A stretch of 42,868 nucleotides of DNA from Anaerolineae bacterium. Lineage in GTDB: Bacteria > Chloroflexota > Anaerolineae > B4-G1 > DUEL01. The notes beneath the pieces are model-generated. The model searched no databases. It worked only from the letters and a program-made list of their open reading frames with translations, and was not told the DNA's origin. Below are positions 4,129-37,262 of the stretch, piece by piece (positions within the stretch are counted from its first letter, which is position 1; every line of letters starts with the position of its first letter). The DNA is taken from NCBI GenBank assembly GCA_016926575.1, contig JAFGOJ010000454.1, positions 1-42,868 of the forward strand, in the 5' to 3' direction. Position numbers and translations under genes: made by a program.

Positions 4129-4207
4129 CCGGCCTGCCTTTGCCAAGAAGCGAAACGGCCCTACCCCGTCCGCACCGGGCCAGTACTGGATCGCCTCGGC
4201 CAGATCC
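4129..4207 (-). repeat. Copy A: decayed comM 3'-end fragment plus a shortened R1 flank module
   Basis: 4161-4207 (ctaccccgtccgcaccgggccagtactggatcgcctcggccagatccg) aligns with 12934-12979 (ctaccccgcccgcctgggccggtactgaatggcctcggccaggtgcg). The core gggcc..cg matches at about 29/34 with one 1-nt indel. The minus-strand reading is DLAEAIQYWPG versus comM HLAEAIQYRPR. 4129-4138 ccggcctgcc and 4147-4155 gaagcgaaa match the ends of R1 (12831-12840, 12852-12860). The central ~70 nt of R1 is absent. Confidence 0.6.
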
Positions 4208-8050: not shown

Positions 8051-11000
8051 ATGAATACCGGACCTTTGCGCAACCCGACGTCTACCCTGCTTGTCATGGC
8101 GCTCTGCCTGACCCCTGGCATGGCGCATTCCGCAACGCAGGACGACTTGGCAGAGGGTGTCATAGAACGAATTTCCACTGCGGATATGACGCCCGACGGA
8201 TGCTATATCGAATCTCCATCGACCCTGTTGGCAAACGATCCACCCCCGATCGGGAATGACATTTTCGTGCGCGACCGCGACACGGACGGCAATGGCGTAT
8301 GCGATGAGCGCGGCGGCATCCGCACGACGCGTATCAGCCTGGGCGCCAGCGGCACCGAGCCGAACGATCTCATCCTGACCCCAGCCCCGCCAGCCGACGC
8401 GGACGCTGCCTCCCGTGGAGGGGCCTGGCCGCACAGCGGCCTTGTCGCCCCAGTGCTCCGGTCACCCAACTGGGTCGTGCTCTACGCCGCGCCAACCGCT
8501 CAGGGCAGCGGCGACTGCTCCAGTTGGGCGAACGCCTGCACCCTGCAGACCGCGCTGGGCAATGCTGCCAGCGACGACGAGATCTGGGTGCAGGCCGGTG
8601 TCCACAAGCCCACCGTCACCACCGACCGCACGATTTCCTTTACCCTCGACAGCGGCGCGTACATCTTTGGCGGTTTTGATGGCACGGAGACGAGCCTCGA
8701 CCAGCGCGATTGGCAGGCCAACGTGACGATACTCAGCGGCGACATCGACAACAACGACGTCAACACAGACGGCAACTTTATCGCCGAAACCCCGGCAGAT
8801 ATCCAGGGCAATAACAGCTACCACGTCCTGTTCACCGACACTGCGGCAGGGGGCACCGTGCTGGACGGCTTTGTCATCACCGCCGGGCAGGCCAACGGCG
8901 CCGCGAACACGGATGAAACACGCGGCGGGGGGATGTACAACCACGACAATAACCTGTGGCTGGAGAACCTCATCTTCAGCGGCAACACGGCGACTCAGTA
9001 CGGCGGTGGGATGTACAACGCGAGCACCGACTATCTGTGGCTGATGAACATCACCTTCAGTGGCAACACCGTGACAGGCAGTGGCGGTGGCGGCGGGATG
9101 CACAACCGCTACAGCAGCCCTGTGCTGGCGGGCGTCACCTTCAGCAACAGCAGCGCATCCCAGTCCAGCATGGGCGGGGGACTGGATAACCAGTTCTCCA
9201 GCAGCCCGACGCTGACGGACGTCACGTTTGTCAACAACAGCGCGGGTTGGGGCGGCGGGATGTCCAATTACAGCAACTGCCACCCCGAGCTGACGAACGC
9301 GACCTTCAGCGGCAACTCTGCGACGGGCAGCAGTGGCGGCACCGGCGGCGGGATGAACAACGCCAATTCCAGCAACCCAACGCTGACGAACGTCGTGTTC
9401 AGCGGCAATTCCGCCACCAATACAGGCGGCGGGATGAGTAATTCGGTCAGTAGCAGCCCCGAGCTGACGAACGTGGTCTTTAGCGGCAACACCGTCACGA
9501 ACTGGCACGGCGGCGGGATGGCCAACTCGAGCGGCGACCCCGTGTTGACCAACGTCCTCTTCCTCGGCAACACGACGCGGGCCGGCGGCGGCGGGATGTA
9601 CAGTCAAGGCGACTGCGTACCCGACCTTATGAACGTCACGTTCTACGGCAACAGGGTAACCCTGGCGAGCGGGCAGGGCGGCGGGTTGTATAGCGATTAC
9701 GATAGCTACACGCTGCTGACCAACGTCATCATGTGGGGCGACATCGCCCCCGCCTCGCCGGAAATCTACAACGCCAACGGCGGCACTGCCGATATCGCCT
9801 ACAGCGACATCCAGGGCTGCGGCGGCTCGGGCAGTGGTTGGGTCAGCACCTGCGGCATAGACTATGACGGCAACATCGACGCCGACCCGCGCTTCTTGGA
9901 CGCCGCCGGCGGCAACCTGCGCCTGCAATGGAACTCGCCCGCCATCGACGCCGGGAGCAACGAATGGATGCCAGCAGGCCTCCTCACCGACCTGGACGAC
10001 AACCTGCGTTTCGTCGACGTTCCCACCGCGCCCGACACCGGCTCGGGCACGCCGCCGATCGTCGACATGGGCGCCTACGAGGCCCAGGTCAACGTGGCGA
10101 TCGCCAAGGCCGTCTCACCGCCAGCCATCGCGTTAGGCGAGACGATCACCTTCACGCTGATGATTTCCAACAGCGGCAGCATCACCGCCACCAACGTGGT
10201 CGTCACCGATACCCTGCCCGCTTTCTTGGCTGGGACGGCGTTCAGCTCGAGCGTTGCCATAACCAATACCGGCTACCTGACGCCCTACGTCTGGGCGGTG
10301 CAGGACCTGGCGCCGAGGCAGGGCGGGATCATCACCGTCAGTGGCGTGCTGACCGCGCTGTCGGCGGGCGGCATCTACACCAACACCGCGACCATCGCCG
10401 ACGACAACGACAGTTGGGCCGGCGACAATACGGCCAGCGTGACCTACACCGTCGTCGTGCCCAACGTGGCCCCGACCTTCACCAGCACGCCGGTCACTAC
10501 AGCTACAGAAGACACGCTCTATACCTACGCCGTTGCCACCCAAGACGCCAACGGCGACCCGCCGGCGATCACCGCGCCGACGCGACCAGGCTGGCTGGCG
10601 CTTGCGGACCACGGCGACGGCACGGCGACCCTCTCCGGCGCGCCGGCCAACGCCGACGTCGGCGATCATGCCGTCGTCCTGCGCGTCACCGACAGCGGGG
10701 GCCTGACCGATACCCAATCGTTCACCGTCACCGTGGCCAACGTCAACGACGCGCCCTTCTTCACCAGCGCGCCGGTCACTGCCGCCGCGCAGGGCGAGCC
10801 CTACACCACCACGCTCACCGCCAGCGATGCTGACCTCGTCCACGGCGACGCACTGACCCTCACTGCCCCCACGCTGCCGCACTGGCTCACGATCACCGAC
10901 CACGGCGACGGCACTGCCATGCTCTCCGGCACGCCGGCCAAAGCCGATATGGGCGACCATGACGTCATCCTGCGCGTCACCGACAGCGGCGGGTTATTCG

Positions 11001-11194
11001 CCGAGCAGGTCTTTGTCATCACCGTAAGCAGCGACTCTTACATCTACCTGCCGCTCGTCATGAGGGAAAACACGGCAGCACAACGACCATCAGCACGGCC
11101 AGCCGCCGTTTGGCCCTGGAAGAACGTGACCGCGCTGACCGCCGTCACCGAGGGCAGCGCATCGCCGCTTGCCGGCGTCGAGGGTCAGCAATGA
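8051..11194 (+). CDS. secreted Pmp-repeat right-handed beta-helix adhesin with DUF11 and two cadherin-like/He_PIG Ig domains
   Basis: Signal peptide MNTGPLRNPTSTLLVMALCLTPGMAHSA. About 10 repeats of the polymorphic-membrane-protein type (FSGN(S/T)A..GGGM.N) lie at roughly 8920-9740. A DUF11-like segment reads VNVAIAKAVSPPAIALGETITFTLMISNSGSITATNVVVTDTLP. Two ~95-aa units end in VANVNDAP and VITV (GWLALADHGDGTATLSGAPANADVGDHAVVLRVTDSGGL and its paralogue). SYIYLPLVMRE lies near the C-terminus. Confidence 0.85.
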   Translation: MNTGPLRNPTSTLLVMALCLTPGMAHSATQDDLAEGVIERISTADMTPDGCYIESPSTLLANDPPPIGNDIFVRDRDTDGNGVCDERGGIRTTRISLGASGTEPNDLILTPAPPADADAASRGGAWPHSGLVAPVLRSPNWVVLYAAPTAQGSGDCSSWANACTLQTALGNAASDDEIWVQAGVHKPTVTTDRTISFTLDSGAYIFGGFDGTETSLDQRDWQANVTILSGDIDNNDVNTDGNFIAETPADIQGNNSYHVLFTDTAAGGTVLDGFVITAGQANGAANTDETRGGGMYNHDNNLWLENLIFSGNTATQYGGGMYNASTDYLWLMNITFSGNTVTGSGGGGGMHNRYSSPVLAGVTFSNSSASQSSMGGGLDNQFSSSPTLTDVTFVNNSAGWGGGMSNYSNCHPELTNATFSGNSATGSSGGTGGGMNNANSSNPTLTNVVFSGNSATNTGGGMSNSVSSSPELTNVVFSGNTVTNWHGGGMANSSGDPVLTNVLFLGNTTRAGGGGMYSQGDCVPDLMNVTFYGNRVTLASGQGGGLYSDYDSYTLLTNVIMWGDIAPASPEIYNANGGTADIAYSDIQGCGGSGSGWVSTCGIDYDGNIDADPRFLDAAGGNLRLQWNSPAIDAGSNEWMPAGLLTDLDDNLRFVDVPTAPDTGSGTPPIVDMGAYEAQVNVAIAKAVSPPAIALGETITFTLMISNSGSITATNVVVTDTLPAFLAGTAFSSSVAITNTGYLTPYVWAVQDLAPRQGGIITVSGVLTALSAGGIYTNTATIADDNDSWAGDNTASVTYTVVVPNVAPTFTSTPVTTATEDTLYTYAVATQDANGDPPAITAPTRPGWLALADHGDGTATLSGAPANADVGDHAVVLRVTDSGGLTDTQSFTVTVANVNDAPFFTSAPVTAAAQGEPYTTTLTASDADLVHGDALTLTAPTLPHWLTITDHGDGTAMLSGTPAKADMGDHDVILRVTDSGGLFAEQVFVITVSSDSYIYLPLVMRENTAAQRPSARPAAVWPWKNVTALTAVTEGSASPLAGVEGQQ

Positions 11195-11363: not shown

Positions 11364-11476
11364 AATGAGAACTCTGGCCTGCCACAACCAGTGGGGAGCG
11401 GAAGAACCCGGTCACCGACCGGCAGTGACGTGCAGCACCGGTATCGGCGAACCCATCACAAGGGGCGGACTAAGGC
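11364..11476 (-). repeat. R1a: 113-nt direct repeat (comM-downstream terminator-like module), left flank of the ATPase cassette
   Basis: Hand alignment with 12821-12933 gives 104/113 identical with no indels. It contains the hairpin CCGGTC-ggt-GACCGG (11408-11422), followed on the minus strand by GTTCTTTCGCTT. Confidence 0.8.
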
Positions 11477-11500
11477 GATGATTCACCGGGCGTTCTCCTG

Positions 11501-12787
11501 CTAGCCCACCAGCCATTCGACCATCGAACGGGTCTCGATTGTCAGACCGTTCTCCTCAACCGCCGGCGCATTGGCATCCGTCAGGATCAACCCGTGAGAT
11601 AGCCCGAGCCCGCGCAGCGCATCTGCCAACGCCCGCACCTCTCTTTCGCGGGTGGCTGGCTGATCCAGGTTCTGCGCTACCTGGATCAACTGGCGGCTCT
11701 CCGGTAAGTAGAAATCCACTTCGTAACCTGCTGGAGAAATGCAGTAATATACCGACTGGGCCTTTCGCCGCAGCGCCAGAAAGACCATGTTTTCCAGCAG
11801 TCTGCCCGTATTGGGAGAGAATGCAAACCCGACAGCATTGGAAAGACCCGTGTCTATGCAGTACATCTTCTTGGGCGCGATCTGCTGGCGCTTGACCGAG
11901 TAGTCGTACACGTTCACCGTGAAGACTAACCAGCTGTTCTCCAGGTATTCGATATAGTTCTTGATCGTATTCACACTGCCCAGGTGAAATTGCTCCTTGA
12001 GTTTGTTGAACGAGACCTGGCAGGCCGGATTGCTCATCAGGTAGAACGCCAGCTCTTTGAGCGCGCGCACCTCTTCGATATGATACCGGGTAGCGATGTC
12101 TCGATGCAGTATATCGTCGTACAGCGTGCGCAGCAGTGGCAGCTCGGGATACTTGAGCGGTTCCGGAATGCCGCCCAGGCGCAGGTACTCACCCAGGTAT
12201 TGTTGCAACCTGGCGCGCTCTACAGTCGTCGAACGGGCCATATCCGGAAGCACATAGCCGCGGAAACGCAGAAACTCGGTGAACGAGAAGGGCAGCAACT
12301 CGATCGGCACGTATCGTCCGGTCAACCGGCTGCCCAGCTCCCGGCTGAGCAGCGAAGCGTTCGAGCCGGTGATATAGAACTTGAAGCCCATATCCATGAA
12401 GCGGCGCACCAGATGCTCCCAACCGGGGACATTCTGAACCTCGTCCACTACAAAGACCTGCCGCTCGCCAAATACCTCTACCAGGAGTTGGTACACATCG
12501 TTGGCGTCCTCAGCCTGGAAACCCAGAAATCGGTCGTCCTCGAAATTTAGGTAGTAGAACCTGTCTTCGCCCAGCCGGTGCGCCAGTTGCGCCAGCAAGG
12601 TGGACTTGCCCACCCGCCGCAGCCCGGAGACGATAACCGCATGGGGCAGCAGCGCAGCCTGCTCGATCTCTGCCAATTGCGTGCGCTCGATGCCAATATC
12701 GCGCCGCCAGAAGGCCTGGAACTGCTCCAATAGCATCGCCTTGATCTGCTCTCTCGTCCAACGGGCTTTCCATAGGTTTTCATTCAT
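11501..12787 (-). CDS. AAA-family ATPase with C-terminal DUF4143 domain (AAA_14/DUF4143 family)
   Basis: Likely start MNENLWKARW at 12787; the ORF is open to 12844, but that stretch lies in promoter/repeat sequence. Walker A is VSGLRRVGKSTLL and Walker B is VFVVDEVQ. The C-terminal region has the GYEVDFYL...LIQV signature typical of DUF4143. The gene is visibly more AT-rich than its neighbours. Confidence 0.9.
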   Translation of the reverse strand: MNENLWKARWTREQIKAMLLEQFQAFWRRDIGIERTQLAEIEQAALLPHAVIVSGLRRVGKSTLLAQLAHRLGEDRFYYLNFEDDRFLGFQAEDANDVYQLLVEVFGERQVFVVDEVQNVPGWEHLVRRFMDMGFKFYITGSNASLLSRELGSRLTGRYVPIELLPFSFTEFLRFRGYVLPDMARSTTVERARLQQYLGEYLRLGGIPEPLKYPELPLLRTLYDDILHRDIATRYHIEEVRALKELAFYLMSNPACQVSFNKLKEQFHLGSVNTIKNYIEYLENSWLVFTVNVYDYSVKRQQIAPKKMYCIDTGLSNAVGFAFSPNTGRLLENMVFLALRRKAQSVYYCISPAGYEVDFYLPESRQLIQVAQNLDQPATREREVRALADALRGLGLSHGLILTDANAPAVEENGLTIETRSMVEWLVG

Positions 12788-12793
12788 AGTGCA

Positions 12794-12822
12794 ATTATAT
12801 ACCACATAGTTTGCATTGTCAA
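12794..12822 (-). promoter_or_regulatory. perfect-consensus sigma70 promoter (TTGACA-N17-TATAAT) giving a leaderless or near-leaderless ATPase mRNA
   Basis: Minus strand reads ttgaca (12822-12817), a 17-nt spacer and tataat (12799-12794), then 6 nt (tgcact) and the ATG at 12787. The predicted TSS therefore falls at or next to the A of the start codon. Confidence 0.65.
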
Positions 12823-12933
12823 TGAAAACTCCGGCCTGCCACAACCAGCGGGAAGCGAAAGAACCCGGTCACCGACCGGCAGTGACGCGCAGCACCCATA
12901 TCGGCGAACCCATCACAAGGGGCGGACTACGGC
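12821..12933 (-). repeat. R1b: 113-nt direct repeat, right flank of the ATPase cassette, directly abutting the comM 3' remnant
   Basis: See R1a. The hairpin CCGGTC-ggt-GACCGG lies at 12865-12879 with a T-rich run downstream on the minus strand. This fits the 3' UTR/terminator of a comM-like gene whose stop codon is at 12934-12936. Confidence 0.8.
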
Positions 12934-13122
12934 CTACCCCGCCCGCCTGGGCCGGTACTGAATGGCCTCGGCCAGGTGCGGGATCTCGATGCGGGCGCTC
13001 CACCCGCACTTGGTCTTCACGCGCAGCACTTCATGGAAGTCAATGTGGTCTGGGAATGGCCTTACTCGAATTGGAGTAAGCAAGACGATCACGGCTTCAG
13101 TCATCCCTCGGAAGCACCCCAT
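12934..13122 (-). pseudogene. Copy B: orphan 3'-terminal fragment of a comM/yifB-like gene
   Basis: 12941-13001 matches 35731-35791 at 58/61. It encodes ...SARIEIPHLAEAIQYRPRRAG*, versus ...SARIEIPHLAEAIQYRPRRAS* for the intact comM. Upstream of 13002 the two sequences diverge, and the 62-aa ORF has no ATPase body. Confidence 0.75.
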
Positions 13123-13145: not shown

Positions 13146-13174
13146 TTGACAAGCCCATGCTTTCGACCTACAAT
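13146..13174 (+). promoter_or_regulatory. near-consensus sigma70-type promoter upstream of the giant gene (TTGACA-N17-TACAAT)
   Basis: ttgaca at 13146-13151, a 17-nt spacer (agcccatgctttcgacc), and tacaat at 13169-13174. It would give a leader of about 360 nt before the ATG at 13542. Confidence 0.5.
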
Positions 13175-13541
13175 AAGACCAGACCACCCGTGACGCCCAG
13201 GCTGTGAATTCGGACGGCCGCCAACCCCTCGCGAGCCTTCCCGACGACTAGGGACATGGTCTCGCGCAGCACTCGTTGCGCCTTCAGATATGTGTGGCAG
13301 GCTATTGGCTTCAAGCGAAATGGGCGAGATGCTTGAAACAGTACCCTGTCCCCTGTTGTCAAGGAACACCGATGTGCCACAAATGCAGCGCTCAATCCGT
13401 TTCTCTCTTGCAGCCCCGCCATATCCTCTGTTCTGACCTCTATCCATTACGGCTTCCCGGTTGTCACAGGTGTGCCGTCTGTGGACGCTGCCTGGGCTCG
13501 CGCAGAGCAGGCAGGCTTGGCCCGATGACAGGAGATGTCGC

Positions 13542-35723: not shown

Positions 35724-37262
35724 CTATGATGCCCGCCGTGGCCGGTACTGAATGGCCTCGGCCAGGTGCGGAATCTCGATGCGGGCGCTCCCCGCGAGAT
35801 CCGCGATCGTGCGGGCCAGCTTGAGGATGCGGTGGAAAGCGCGCGCGCTCATCTGCAGTTGCTGCATCGCCGCCTTGATCAATCCCCGCCCAGCCTCGTC
35901 CAGGCTGCAGATCTGGCGCACTTCCGAGGGCCCCATATCGGCGTTGCACAGCAGGGGAGGTTCGCGAACCGCCCATGCCGCGAAACGCTGCCGCTGCACC
36001 TCCCGCGCCGCCTCCACCCGCGCCCGGATCGCCTCCGACGGCTCCCCAAGCCGCCCGTCGGTCAGCTTCTCATAATCCACCCGCGGCACCTCCACGTGGA
36101 TGTCGAAGCGGTCCAGCAGCGGCCCGGAGATGCGCTTCTGGTAGCGGCTGATGGCCTGCATCGAACAGGTGCATTCCCTCAACGGGTCGCCATAGTAGCC
36201 GCAGGGGCAGGGATTCAGCGCCGCCACCAGCATAAAGTTGGCCGGAAAGGTCAGCGTGCCCGAGGCACGCGCGATAGAGACCTGGTGATCCTCCAACGGC
36301 TGGCGCAGCCCTTCCAGCTCCCGCGAACCAAACTCGGGCAGCTCGTCGAGGAAGAGCACGCCCCGGTGAGCCAGGCTGATCTCGCCGGGTCGCGGCCAGT
36401 TGCCCCCACCCACCAGCCCGGCGTGGCTGATGGTGTGATGAGGCGCGCGGAAGGGACGGTGGCGGATGAGGGGGGTGTCCGGCGGCAAGAGCCCTGCCAC
36501 GCTGTAGATCTTGGTCACCTCCAGCGCCTCTTCGACCGACATCGCTGGCAGGATCGAGGGCATCGAACGGGCCAGCAGCGTCTTGCCAGCGCCAGGCGGG
36601 CCGCTCAGTAAAACGTTGTGGCCCGCGGCGGCTGCCACCTCGAGGGCGCGCTTGACGTGCTCCTGTCCCTTGATCTCGGCGAAATCCGCCGCGTAGGGCG
36701 GGAGCGGCGACGAGGCCAGGCCCTGGCCGGGGGTGTAGGGCGGGATCACGCGCAGCCCTTGCAGATGCGCCGCAAGCTGGCCCAGGTTCTCGACCGGGAT
36801 CACCTCCAACCCGTCGATCAGGGCTGCCTCGGGAGCGTCGGCGGCGGGAACGAATAAACGCCGGAGACGCTGCTGGTGGGCCAGCGCCGCGATGGGCAGG
36901 ATGCCGTTGACGTGGCACACCGAGCCGTCGAGAGAGAGCTCGCCGATGAACAACGCGCCTTCGACCTGCTGCGGCCAGGCCTGCTCCGACGCGATCATCA
37001 CCCCCACGGCAATGGGCAGATCGTAGACGGGCCCCTCCTTGCGTATGTCGGCAGGGGCCAGGTTGATGGTGATGCGCTTGTTGGGGAAAAGAAAGCCCGA
37101 GTTCCTGATGGCCGCGCGAACCCGCTCGCTGGACTCCTTGACCGCCGCGTCGGGCAGGCCGACCATGATCAACCCGGGCATGCCGCGCGCCGTGTCGACC
37201 TCCACGCTGACAAGGACGCCCTCCAGACCGACCAGGGCGCAGCTGGTGACTTTGGCAAGCAT
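35724..37262 (-). CDS. comM: YifB/ComM family Mg-chelatase-like AAA+ ATPase (competence protein ComM)
   Basis: 512 aa, beginning MLAKVTSCALVGLEGVLVSVEVDTARGMPGLIMVGLPDAAVKESSERVRAAIRNSGF...INLAPADIRKEGPVYDLPIAVGV. Walker A is LLSGPPGAGKTLLA, with GVLFLDELPEF and a C-terminal ...ARAFHRILKLARTIADLAGSARIEIPHLAEAIQYR. Confidence 0.95.
   Translation of the reverse strand: MLAKVTSCALVGLEGVLVSVEVDTARGMPGLIMVGLPDAAVKESSERVRAAIRNSGFLFPNKRITINLAPADIRKEGPVYDLPIAVGVMIASEQAWPQQVEGALFIGELSLDGSVCHVNGILPIAALAHQQRLRRLFVPAADAPEAALIDGLEVIPVENLGQLAAHLQGLRVIPPYTPGQGLASSPLPPYAADFAEIKGQEHVKRALEVAAAAGHNVLLSGPPGAGKTLLARSMPSILPAMSVEEALEVTKIYSVAGLLPPDTPLIRHRPFRAPHHTISHAGLVGGGNWPRPGEISLAHRGVLFLDELPEFGSRELEGLRQPLEDHQVSIARASGTLTFPANFMLVAALNPCPCGYYGDPLRECTCSMQAISRYQKRISGPLLDRFDIHVEVPRVDYEKLTDGRLGEPSEAIRARVEAAREVQRQRFAAWAVREPPLLCNADMGPSEVRQICSLDEAGRGLIKAAMQQLQMSARAFHRILKLARTIADLAGSARIEIPHLAEAIQYRPRRAS
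35731..35791 (-). repeat. Copy C: the 3'-terminal 61 nt of intact comM, repeated at 12941-13001
   Basis: 58/61 identity by hand alignment, in direct orientation, at an offset of exactly 22,790 nt. Confidence 0.85.

What the first reader, a model, noticed from the sequence alone, without database searches (positions are those of the whole stretch)
11364..12933. Self-contained AAA/DUF4143 ATPase cassette bracketed by 113-nt direct repeats, with a perfect consensus promoter and a leaderless start
Seen in the sequence:
- R1a (11364-11476) and R1b (12821-12933) are 104/113 identical direct repeats, 1,457 nt apart.
- The 1,344 nt between them holds just one gene (11501-12787, minus strand) and its promoter.
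- That promoter is TTGACA-N17-TATAAT, placed 6 nt from the ATG, so the mRNA should be leaderless.
- The -35 box abuts or overlaps the first bases of R1b.
- The insert is visibly more AT-rich than its surroundings.
- R1 carries a small hairpin plus T-run on the minus strand. The duplicated R1a would therefore serve as the terminator of the ATPase gene.

From memory, to be verified: the DUF4143 C-terminal region is grouped with PD-(D/E)xK nuclease-like folds (here GYEVDFYL...LIQV). These orphan ATPases are of unknown function and are patchily distributed.

Inference: this is a one-gene insertion that duplicated, or recombined through, the comM-downstream module. The gene may be a selfish or defence-type gene.
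Basis: partly seen in the sequence, partly recalled or inferred. Interest (0 to 1): 0.6.

Follow-up and report, generated by a model that had tools for sequence, protein, structure and literature searches.

The report
Repeat-bracketed candidate defence ATPase cassette
A single gene for an ATPase with a nuclease-like tail, of a widespread but untested "candidate phage-defence" family, sits with its own conserved palindromic promoter between two copies of the 113 bases that once followed the neighbouring comM gene. Comparison with about 70 related loci suggests such genes are repeatedly dropped next to gene ends by recombination that duplicates the target.

Summary
- R1a (11364-11476) and R1b (12821-12933) are 104/113 identical direct repeats.
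- They bracket one gene (11501-12787, minus strand): AAA_14 + DUF4143, PADLOC candidate PDC-S01.
- The gene has a 12/12 consensus promoter that ends 6 nt before the ATG.

What is new:
- In about 66 distinct related loci, mostly Chloroflexota/Anaerolineae, the 45 nt before the ATG are nearly invariant and ungapped. They hold a palindrome centred on the -35 box whose outer arms co-vary, and a second copy of the palindrome core across the start codon. The leaderless layout is therefore a family trait.
- Conservation stops at the stop codon, and genomic neighbours differ everywhere.
- Ten of about 50 loci carry direct repeats of local sequence on both sides of the gene, against 2 of 82 control genes. 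Three loci, including this one, have the repeat tight against the unit, and there it is the 3' end or terminator of the co-directional upstream gene.
- Where the repeats are coding, their differences are synonymous-biased. That points to two diverged alleles joined by recombination.
- In the window, R1a ends with 10 nt of the cassette's own left palindrome arm, so an R1-cassette junction existed before the duplication.

No empty site could be found, because the nearest relatives are only about 85% identical in ComM. R1 is not a high-copy repeat as far as could be tested. The mechanism is inferred, not shown.

The parts
11364..11476 (.). R1a, the distal copy of the 113-nt direct repeat. Read on the minus strand it ends (at 11364-11373) in AGTTCTCATT, a 9/10 copy of the cassette's inner left palindrome arm.
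11477..11500 (-). 24-nt spacer between the ATPase stop codon and R1a. It has no counterpart in other loci.
11501..12787 (-). ATPase gene, 428 aa. Features: Walker A GLRRVGKST and Walker B VVDE; helical and winged-helix modules; a C-terminal DUF4143 domain with alpha-beta-beta-beta-alpha-beta topology carrying E332, E356, D358 and Q369. PADLOC candidate PDC-S01.
12776..12794 (-). O2, a second copy of the palindrome core (consensus TTTCATT-ATG-AATGAAAAC) laid across the start codon. In the window its left half has 2 mismatches.
   Evidence: (I13)
12794..12822 (-). Sigma-70-type promoter: TTGACA (12822-12817), 17-nt spacer, TATAAT (12799-12794). The ATG at 12787 lies 6 nt after the -10 box, which predicts a leaderless mRNA.
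12809..12829 (-). O1 palindrome core GTTTTCATTG-A-CAATG(C)AAAC, centred on the -35 box. In most relatives the arms extend to 14-20 nt. Here the outer left arm is replaced by R1b sequence.
12821..12933 (.). R1b, the comM-proximal copy of the repeat. It starts right after the stop codon of the comM remnant and runs into the cassette's left palindrome arm.
12934..13001 (-). comM 3' remnant B. Positions 12941-13001 match the 3' end of intact comM (35731-35791) at 58/61. It marks the former end of comM, to which R1 was the downstream flank.

Best explanation
What the unit is:
- It is a self-contained one-gene unit of the PDC-S01 family, an ORC/STAND-like ATPase with a winged helix and a C-terminal restriction-endonuclease-like DUF4143 domain.
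- It carries its own regulatory module: a strong sigma-70 promoter that starts transcription at the ATG, plus two copies of one palindromic operator core, 33 nt apart (O1 over the -35 box, O2 over the start codon).
- I infer tight repression, most simply by the encoded protein's own winged helix. The long O1 hairpin may also block transcription reading in from upstream.

How it came to lie between the repeats:
- The unit lies 113 nt downstream of what used to be the comM stop codon.
- The two R1 copies are most likely two diverged versions, resident and incoming, of that comM-downstream segment. They would have been joined when DNA carrying R1 plus the cassette recombined into the resident R1, either as a single crossover of a circularised fragment or by homology-anchored illegitimate recombination.
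- R1a still ends in 10 nt of the cassette's left palindrome arm. The resident locus had therefore already held, and lost, a cassette, with the break 2 nt from the palindrome centre. This is loss followed by regain.

Shown: the anatomy, the family-wide promoter, the recurrence of flank duplications, and the allele-like divergence of the repeats that are coding.
Inferred: the order of events, the recombination route, the autoregulation and the defence function.
For: Unit and promoter:
- Anatomy of the unit.
- 66 distinct loci align without gaps over -60..+12, with invariant spacing from the -10 box to the ATG.
- Palindrome co-variation: 101 cells changed on both sides against 45.8 in shuffles (0 of 500 shuffles reach it); score 0.242 against at most 0.106 for slid partners.
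- O1 is found in 73 loci and O2 in 36.
- Flanks diverge right after the stop codon and neighbouring genes differ.

Flank duplications:
- 10 of about 50 loci have them, against 2 of 82 controls, Fisher p = 0.001. There were 15 direct hit rows against 1 inverted; some rows are redundant loci or second hits in one locus.
- Tight cases: L081 (73 nt, 93%, the 3' end of a glycosyltransferase-like gene) and L059 (47 nt, the terminator of the upstream ORF), with the same geometry as the window.
- L015: a 236-nt repeat made of gene segments, with 9 of 9 differences synonymous in the first 32 codons.
- L088: a 332-nt duplication of the comM 3' end around one WD40 gene, with differences at codon positions 1/2/3 of 5/8/22.

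Cassette turnover:
- Remnants of cassette ends occur in L039 (5' end) and L019 (3' end), and as a lone arm motif in L032.

This locus and R1:
- ComM relatives have no ATPase or R1 after comM.
- R1 is not high-copy: 2 copies in the window; no further copies at 85% or more in the 56% of the source run that was read; nothing in two collection scans beyond one 34-nt match that looks like chance.

Composition and fold:
- Gene GC tracks the flanks poorly: slope 0.48 against 0.85 for control ORFs.
- Fold: pLDDT 94.4; best PDB matches are CED-4, Apaf-1-like Dark, RFC, Cdc6/Orc1, Avs4 and MalT.
Against: - No empty site and no donor allele was found, so insertion is inferred from anatomy and analogy only.
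- R1 is non-coding, so the synonymous-bias test that supports the two-allele model in L015 and L088 cannot be applied to it. In L081 the five differences are not synonymous-biased.
- The ATPase is as conserved relative to its nearest relatives (82%) as ComM is (85%), and ComM neighbourhoods are also unconserved. Different contexts therefore do not prove mobility.
- Several flank repeats in other loci (L004, L016, L017, L018) look like REP-like hairpins lying further from the gene. They could be dispersed repeats in long intergenic regions, which would inflate the enrichment.
- The distal boundary of R1 coincides with the comM stop codon, which a random donor fragment end does not predict.
- There is no transcript evidence.
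Confidence: 0.45

Rival explanations
1. In-situ rearrangement. A local tandem duplication of [R1 + cassette], or a replication template switch, was followed by deletion of the second cassette from the centre of the O1 palindrome. This left R1 plus 10 nt of the left arm behind. The 8% divergence then accumulated afterwards.
For: - R1a carries the cassette's left arm and stops 2 nt from the palindrome centre, a natural breakage or template-switch point.
- The differences are 7 transitions and 2 transversions with no indels, as expected for neutral drift.
- L019 shows a remnant of an ATPase 3' end upstream of an intact copy.
Against: - It needs two events whose end points coincide.
- Coding repeats in L015 and L088 diverged under purifying selection, which in-situ decay of a dead copy does not give.
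- No second cassette remnant lies beyond R1a.
Confidence: 0.25
2. The promoter-plus-gene unit is itself a mobile element. It moves without a linked recombinase, by its own ATPase-nuclease or by a host enzyme acting on the palindrome. It inserts just behind gene ends at widely staggered breaks, so that repair duplicates 47-113 nt of target. The left junction would form by microhomology to the palindrome arm.
For: - In three loci (window, L081, L059) the duplicated target abuts the unit within 0-25 nt on both sides. The repeat period is 1,416-1,457 nt, and the target is always the 3' end or terminator of a co-directional gene.
- The palindrome co-varies like a structured site.
- The wider family sits on plasmids (279 records) and on some phage-like contigs.
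- Gene GC tracks the host poorly.
Against: - There is no conserved 3' end motif, no terminal inverted repeats and no transposase.
- Most loci show no duplication.
- The repeats are 7-25% diverged rather than identical.
- No relative was found on IMG/VR viral contigs.
- Contig depths in the source run (16.2 against 10.8-14.6) give no clear sign of extra copies.
- The canonical nuclease ExK motif is absent.
Confidence: 0.1
3. R1 is simply a dispersed intergenic or terminator repeat of this genome, and the ATPase happens to lie between two copies. No event specific to this gene took place.
For: - R1 holds terminator-like hairpins.
- Flank repeats in L016, L017, L018 and L004 look like REP-type hairpin elements.
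- The own genome could not be scanned.
Against: - Only two copies occur in 42.9 kb.
- No other copy at 85% or more was laid from the 56% of the source metagenome's contigs that were read. With N further copies the chance of seeing none is 0.44^N.
- No exact 22-23-mers were found in the species-representative genomes of genome contigs or in the JGI metagenome contigs, beyond one 34-nt match inside an actinobacterial argG.
- R1 begins exactly at the comM stop codon and ends inside the cassette's palindrome arm in both copies. A free-standing repeat family would not do that.
Confidence: 0.1
4. The arrangement is ancestral and vertically inherited. The ATPase is a conserved resident gene of this Anaerolineae lineage, and the R1 duplication is an old, functionally retained feature, for example paired terminators that insulate a tightly regulated gene.
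For: - The subfamily is one tight cluster, as conserved as ComM.
- In the window and in L059 the duplicated segment supplies a terminator-like hairpin on both sides.
Against: - Relatives at 85% ComM identity have other genes after comM and no ATPase there.
- The two R1 copies differ at 9 scattered sites, including the stem of the better terminator-like hairpin.
- The R1a hairpins are weak.
Confidence: 0.1

Closest known systems
PDC-S01 (PADLOC phage-defence candidate; AAA_14 + DUF4143, COG1373)
   Same: Full-length HMM match, E 2.3e-103. It has the same two-domain build of an ATPase fused to a PD-(D/E)XK-superfamily domain, and it is a single-gene system often found embedded among unrelated genes.
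   Different: - The defence function of the family is untested.
- This Chloroflexota clade is one tight 50%-identity cluster, as conserved as ComM.
- It carries an invariant palindromic leaderless promoter, which I did not find described in the searchable literature.
Integrative elements and their integrase-less derivatives accreted at gene 3' ends (for example islands at comM; cis-mobilisable elements flanked by att sites)
   Same: Imperfect direct repeats of the target gene's 3' region bracket the cargo. The comM 3' end itself occurs three times in this window and twice in L088. The cargo lacks recombination genes.
   Different: - The R1 repeat is the 113 nt after the comM stop codon, not the gene end.
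- No integrase lies in or beside the 1.3-kb insert.
- Repeat lengths vary from 47 to 332 nt between loci, with no shared core.
- The repeat runs into the cassette's own promoter.
Integron gene cassettes (ORF plus palindromic attC)
   Same: A one-gene unit with an imperfect palindrome whose sequence varies while the pairing is kept.
   Different: - The palindrome is at the 5' end and is the promoter. Integron cassettes are usually promoterless, with attC at the 3' end.
- There is no IntI and no attI.
- The core sequence is highly conserved.
- No arrays were seen.
STAND / ORC-Cdc6-type NTPases used in immunity (Avs, CED-4/Apaf-1, MalT)
   Same: The best structural matches of the high-confidence model are CED-4, Dark, Cdc6/Orc1, RFC, Avs4, NRC2, MalT and Avs5, which share an NTPase followed by helical and winged-helix modules.
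   Different: - TM-scores are low (0.27-0.41).
- There is no repeat sensor domain.
- The nuclease-like domain is C-terminal.
- Membership was not tested beyond fold similarity.
Homology-facilitated illegitimate recombination, or Campbell-type single-crossover integration (from my own knowledge of transformation genetics)
   Same: Both leave foreign DNA flanked by two diverged copies of the anchoring homologous segment, as seen in L015 and L088 and proposed here for R1.
   Different: It has not been demonstrated in Chloroflexota. No donor sequence is in hand.

Membership tests
Pfam AAA_14 + DUF4143 (COG1373) | Both domain models matched above the gathering score, in the order ATPase then DUF4143 | tested here: met
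   AAA_14 scores 119.1 bits (cut-off 27) over residues 50-173. DUF4143 scores 70.5 bits (cut-off 28.1) over residues 229-368.
PADLOC PDC-S01 | Full-length match to a PDC-S01 profile | tested here: met
   PDLC04787, E 2.3e-103, residues 32-427 against profile positions 10-407 of 412.
PADLOC PDC-S01 | Protection against phage | not testable with these tools
PD-(D/E)XK nuclease | alpha-beta-beta-beta-alpha-beta core fold | tested here: inconclusive
   The model (pLDDT 94.4) has H327-342, E347-350, E356-361, E366-370, H377-394 and E398-403. The domain could not be searched alone against the PDB, and full-length hits were dominated by the ATPase. DUF4143 is listed in the superfamily (PMC3424549).
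PD-(D/E)XK nuclease | Catalytic D ... (D/E)-x-K signature | tested here: not met
   E332 and D358 are invariant, but the beta-3 motif is Q369-V-[A/S]371. The Q-V pair is at least 90% conserved even among relatives of 30-47% identity. This may be a variant active site or a non-catalytic domain.
Leaderless mRNA gene | A -10 box placed so that transcription starts at the start codon, with no room for a Shine-Dalgarno sequence | tested here: met
   TATAAT ends 6 nt before the ATG. The spacing is invariant in 66 aligned loci.
Leaderless mRNA gene | Mapped 5' end at the start codon | not testable with these tools
   Three metatranscriptomes of the same study held no contig of this stretch.
Integron cassette | attC at the 3' end, with an integron integrase and attI nearby | tested here: not met
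   There is no conserved 3' element. The window ORFs around the cassette include none annotated as an integrase, though the neighbouring ORFs were not scanned against Pfam. The palindrome is 5' and is the promoter.
IS or transposon | Transposase, terminal inverted repeats and short identical target-site duplications | tested here: not met
   The only ORF is the ATPase. No inverted terminal repeats were seen. The flanking repeats are 47-332 nt long and 75-93% identical.
Site-specific integrative element at comM | Direct att repeats derived from the target, plus a tyrosine or serine recombinase (in cis or in trans) | tested here: inconclusive
   Direct repeats are present. There is no recombinase in the insert.
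Dispersed intergenic (REP-like) repeat, for R1 | Many copies per genome | tested here: inconclusive
   Two copies in the window. No others in 56% of the source run's contigs. None in the collection scans. The own genome was not searchable.

The most novel reading that the evidence does not exclude
The 1.34-kb promoter-plus-gene unit is an autonomous, recombinase-free mobile cassette. Its ORC/STAND-like ATPase with the nuclease-like tail recognises the palindrome and inserts the unit just behind the 3' ends of co-directional genes, at widely staggered breaks that duplicate 50-110 nt or more of target. On this reading, one of the commonest 'defence candidates' of prokaryotes would be, at least in Chloroflexota, a new kind of selfish single-gene element.
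Probability: 0.08. Interest if true: 0.85.

Novelty: new variant of a known kind. Interest (0 to 1): 0.5.

Why it matters
- PDC-S01 is reported as the fourth most frequent defence call across prokaryotes (PMC12988326), yet nothing is known about how it works or how it is controlled.
- This locus led to a large Chloroflexota clade in which the gene carries an almost invariant control region: two palindromic operator copies wrapped around a consensus promoter and a leaderless start. That gives a direct experimental handle for binding, repression and induction assays.
- The clade is as conserved as ComM. That fits poorly with the fast turnover expected of defence genes, so the functional label deserves testing.
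- The recurring duplications of neighbouring gene ends around these genes suggest a recombination route by which Anaerolineae add single genes behind gene ends without a linked integrase. The same pattern is seen around other single genes at comM, and in coding cases the repeat divergence looks allelic.

Tried and rejected
R1 copy number in the own genome and ATPase copy number per genome could therefore not be measured.
- R1 as a structured RNA: folding z-scores lie between -0.4 and +0.7, and Rfam gave only sub-threshold miRNA noise on the promoter palindrome. Rejected.
- R1 as coding sequence: one plus-strand frame is open in both copies, but 8 of the 9 base differences change the encoded residue (my reading). 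Rejected.
- R1 as a remnant of the argG 5' end: the only collection hit is a 34-nt (32/34) match to the start of an Acidimicrobiaceae argininosuccinate synthase gene. Only the 8 residues SLPVGDRV align, E 0.26. Left as unexplained.
- A conserved 3' end or left-arm remnant after the stop codon as a general feature: 6 hits in the first 100 nt over 67 loci, against 7 on the reverse strand. TTTCACC-type motifs occur only in 3 related loci. Rejected.
- Empty-site or excision joints in the source metagenome: none, but only contigs were available and only 56% of the run was read.
- Cassette depth as a sign of extra copies: 16.2 against 10.8-14.6, which is not convincing.
- Transcript evidence: none.
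- Short contigs (about 1.5 kb) of many homologues as a sign of mobility: the ComM hit list shows equally short contigs, so this was dropped.
- The first structure model, built from a shallow alignment, was poor (pLDDT 62.6). It was replaced by the model from a diverse alignment.
- Strand bias of G-T against A-C mismatches in O1 (65:23), and sense against antisense folding energy (-13.2 against -12.4 kcal/mol), are too weak to decide between an RNA hairpin and a DNA palindrome.
Full report
**1. Observation**

- The repeat finder returns one two-copy family of 113 nt, at 11364-11476 and 12821-12933. It is 92% identical, ungapped, with a spacing of 1,457 nt. The pairwise alignment shows that homology stops abruptly on both sides.
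- A blastn of the region against the whole window finds no third copy.
- Between the repeats lies one gene, 11501-12787 on the minus strand, 428 aa. It matches AAA_14 (E 1.6e-34) and DUF4143 (E 1.8e-19).
- The promoter scan finds TTGACA-N17-TATAAT at 12822..12794 on the minus strand, with 12 of 12 matches. The ATG at 12787 follows 6 nt after the -10 box.
- The gene has 57.3% GC against 63.9% in its flanks.
- The terminator-like hairpins in R1 are real but weak: three pattern hits in R1b and one in R1a.
- R1 folds no better than shuffled sequence, and it has no Rfam match.

**2. Setting**

- An intact comM lies at 35724-37262 (minus strand). Its last 61 nt recur at 12941-13001 (58/61), and in a more decayed form at 4155-4203. 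This agrees with earlier notes of this scan.
- R1b begins directly after the stop codon of that comM remnant. R1 is therefore the first 113 nt of what was once the comM-downstream flank.
- Source names in the protein searches place the organism in Anaerolineae/Chloroflexota.

**3. The gene is a discrete unit with a family-wide control region**

How the family is distributed:
- The ATPase has thousands of relatives. The best 120 clusters are 74-82% identical.
- In a library clustered at 50% identity the whole subfamily collapses into one full-length representative. The next relatives are 47% identical or less.
- I fetched 5 loci by exact protein look-up and 80 from metagenome contigs. Neighbouring genes differ from locus to locus.

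The control region:
- In all loci that have upstream sequence, the 45 nt before the ATG are nearly invariant. The consensus is AATAGTTTTCATTGACAATGAAAACTATTTG-TGTATTATTTCATT-ATGAATGAAAAC.
- Sixty-six distinct sequences align over 72 columns without a single gap.
- The -35 hexamer sits at the centre of a palindrome, which I call O1.
- The -10 box always ends 6 nt before the start codon. The leaderless layout is therefore a conserved trait and not a chance feature of this locus.
- The palindrome core recurs 33 nt downstream as TTTCATT-ATG-AATGAAAAC, across the start codon; I call this O2. The first four codons (MNEN) are thus also part of a DNA site.

Co-variation in O1:
- Beyond the invariant 10-nt arms of O1, positions 11-18 vary between loci but stay complementary. 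For example, pair 17-41 is T-A in 32 loci and A-T in 26.
- There are 101 cells changed on both sides, against 45.8 expected from shuffles. None of 500 shuffles reaches the observed value.
- The co-variation score is 0.242, against at most 0.106 when partners are slid by 1-3 columns.

The 3' boundary:
- Similarity ends at the stop codon, and no 3' motif is shared.

**4. What the protein looks like**

- With a diverse alignment AlphaFold2 gives a confident model: pLDDT 94.4, pTM 0.92.
- Its best PDB matches are CED-4, the Apaf-1-like Dark, RFC subunits, Cdc6/Orc1, Avs4, a plant resistosome, MalT and Avs5. These share an NTPase followed by helical and winged-helix modules. The TM-scores are low (0.27-0.41), so this is a resemblance in build and not a membership claim.
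- The C-terminal 100 residues have the alpha-beta-beta-beta-alpha-beta order of the PD-(D/E)XK fold. DUF4143 is listed in that superfamily (PMC3424549).
- E332 and D358 are invariant. The position of the canonical ExK reads Q369-V-[A/S], and Q-V is kept even at 30-47% identity. Nuclease activity is therefore open.
- PADLOC files the protein under PDC-S01 (E 2.3e-103). This is a 'guilt-by-embedding' candidate, reported as the fourth most common defence call in prokaryotes and still untested.
- Distant relatives (38% identity or less) occur on 279 plasmid records and on a few phage-like contigs. None was found on IMG/VR viral contigs.

**5. Are flanking duplications a property of the family?**

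Test and control:
- For 56 loci with at least 200 nt on both sides, I compared the 800 nt upstream with the 800 nt downstream.
- Ten distinct loci of about 50 have direct repeats at E 1e-5 or better. Across all hit rows, 15 were direct and 1 inverted; some rows are redundant loci or second hits within one locus.
- Among 82 other genes in the same loci, two have such repeats. Fisher p = 0.001.
- One of those two is itself telling. In L088, a relative with 85%-identical ComM, the last 332 nt of comM are repeated at 85% immediately after a single WD40 gene that follows comM.

Geometry:
- Three loci are 'tight'.
  - In the window the repeat runs up to the palindrome centre, and the second copy resumes 24 nt after the stop codon (period 1,457 nt).
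  - In L081 a 73-nt repeat (93%) ends at the left edge of the palindrome and resumes 5 nt after the stop codon (period 1,417 nt).
  - In L059 a 47-nt repeat (85%) ends 6 nt before the left arm and resumes 25 nt after the stop codon (period 1,416 nt).
- In L081 the repeat is the 3' end of a glycosyltransferase-like ORF, whose stop codon now lies in the cassette's left arm.
- In L059 the repeat is a hairpin plus T-run directly behind the upstream ORF.
- In all three tight loci the duplicated segment is the end or terminator of the co-directional upstream gene.
- The other seven repeats lie 85-470 nt away from the gene. Several of them (L004, L016, L017, L018) look like REP-type hairpins. Part of the enrichment may therefore reflect the long intergenic regions around a solitary gene.

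**6. How do such repeats arise?**

- Two cases are coding and allow a test.
  - In L015 a 236-nt segment of a split gene flanks the cassette region at 75% identity. In the first 32 codons all 9 differences are synonymous and the peptides are identical.
  - In L088 the differences between the live comM end and its remnant fall 5/8/22 on codon positions 1/2/3.
- Both patterns mean that most of the divergence arose while both copies were under purifying selection, that is, in two lineages. They do not fit decay of a dead in-situ duplicate.
- The simplest reading is that incoming DNA from a diverged relative carried a copy of the target next to its cargo and recombined with the resident copy. This could be a single crossover of a circularised fragment, or homology-anchored illegitimate recombination.
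- Traces of cassette turnover fit a gain-and-loss regime.
  - L039 holds a 5' remnant (O1, O2 and 14 codons) 2.7 kb upstream of an intact cassette, with a HigA-like gene between them.
  - L019 holds a 3' remnant (residues 390-427, 53% identical) about 300 nt upstream of its cassette.
- Gene GC follows flank GC with slope 0.48 (r 0.57), against 0.85 (r 0.78) for control ORFs. This is suggestive of transfer between hosts, but the control is noisy.

**7. The window itself**

- Here the left outer arm of O1 is not complementary to the right arm. It reads GGCCGGAG where CCACATAG is expected. The hairpin is weak: -7.2 kcal/mol against a family mean of -13.2.
- R1b replaces the outer arm, and the repeat continues through the inner arm, so both R1 copies end in AGTT(T/C)TCATT.
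- A 9/10 match to the cassette's own end at the tip of R1a is very unlikely in virgin target DNA. Either R1a was copied from a pre-existing R1-cassette junction, or the resident locus once held a cassette that was deleted from the palindrome centre.
- I therefore favour loss followed by regain through recombination between two 8%-diverged versions of the comM-downstream segment (confidence about 0.45).
- An in-situ duplication plus deletion at the palindrome comes second (0.25).
- Smaller odds go to an autonomous mobile unit with long target duplications, to a dispersed repeat, and to an ancestral arrangement.

**8. What could not be settled**

- The nearest ComM relatives are 85% identical. 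Their comM-downstream regions hold other genes, with no ATPase and no R1. At that distance an intergenic 113-mer cannot be traced.
- Exact 22- and 23-mers of R1 found one 34-nt match in an actinobacterial argG start (not significant at the protein level) and nothing in JGI metagenomes.
- Only one public run holds the locus. Its contigs show no skipping joint and no extra R1 copies in the 56% that was read.
- Contig depths (cassette 16.2, neighbours 10.8-14.6) do not show amplification.
- Three metatranscriptomes of the same study hold nothing from this stretch.

**9. Verdict**

The gene belongs to a known but uncharacterised family.
- New here: the family-wide palindromic leaderless control region; the recurrence and allele-like nature of flank duplications around these and other single genes in Anaerolineae; and the cassette-arm remnant in R1a.
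- An earlier AI note describes cut-off flank copies between AAA_14/DUF4143 and toxin-antitoxin cassettes in Daviesbacteria. It is a lead that points the same way, not independent proof.

Noticed in passing
L088:10246-10577 and L088:12918-13260: In a relative with 85%-identical ComM, the last 332 nt of comM recur at 85% right after a single WD40-repeat gene that follows comM. The remnant has a frameshift, an in-frame stop codon and an 18-nt palindromic insertion. Differences fall 5/8/22 on codon positions 1/2/3. This is the same 'one gene between two target copies' pattern as in the window.
   Followed up: partly
L015:821-1055 and L015:2979-3195: A 236-nt segment of a gene split by the ATPase region is present on both sides at 75% identity. 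The first 32 codons differ at 9 sites, all synonymous. The peptide RQELTRQRELFKRGHITQAEYEQAFLFIDRQL looked to me like part of a recombinase; this is my guess and was not tested.
   Followed up: partly
L039:1238-1330: A truncated copy of the cassette's 5' end (degenerate O1, -10 box, O2, GTG start and 14 codons) lies 2.7 kb upstream of the intact cassette. A HigA-like antitoxin ORF and a metallophosphoesterase-like ORF lie between them.
   Followed up: partly
L019:4001-4142: A remnant of an ATPase 3' end (residues 390-427, 53% identical), plus the same 15 nt that follow the live gene's stop codon, lies about 300 nt upstream of the intact cassette.
   Followed up: partly
window 11406-11439 and 12863-12896; L007:7573-7605: The core of R1 matches 32/34 nt of the start of an argininosuccinate synthase gene of an Acidimicrobiaceae MAG (peptide SLPVGDRV). 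Nothing beyond these 8 residues aligns. Origin unexplained.
   Followed up: partly
window 13146-13174 (+): A second near-consensus promoter, TTGACA-N17-TACAAT (11 of 12 matches), lies about 290 nt upstream of the 7,375-aa ORF that starts at 13461.
   Followed up: no
window 8051-11194 (+): The 1,047-aa ORF left of R1a contains at least 9 copies of an 81-93-nt unit (GGGM..N...L.NV.F.GN), which looks like a parallel beta-helix repeat protein, and a 156-nt internal duplication (10546-10701 and 10837-10992, 78%).
   Followed up: no
window 12941-13040 (-): comM remnant B is mosaic: 5% divergence from live comM over the last 61 nt, but only faint protein-level similarity (FH.vL..) over the 40 nt before that. 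The sharp step in divergence at 13002 looks like a recombination boundary.
   Followed up: no
L032:3561-3569: A perfect copy of the inner left arm GTTTTCATT lies 15 nt after the ATPase stop codon. It resembles the end of R1a in the window, but the feature is not general (6 forward against 7 reverse hits over 67 loci).
   Followed up: yes
L005:7258-8628 and onward: In one locus the ATPase lies next to a tyrosine-recombinase gene, a DUF499 protein and an SMC_N/AAA_13 protein. This is the only defence-island-like neighbourhood among the five contexts that came with Pfam annotation (L005 and L006 are the same arrangement).
   Followed up: no
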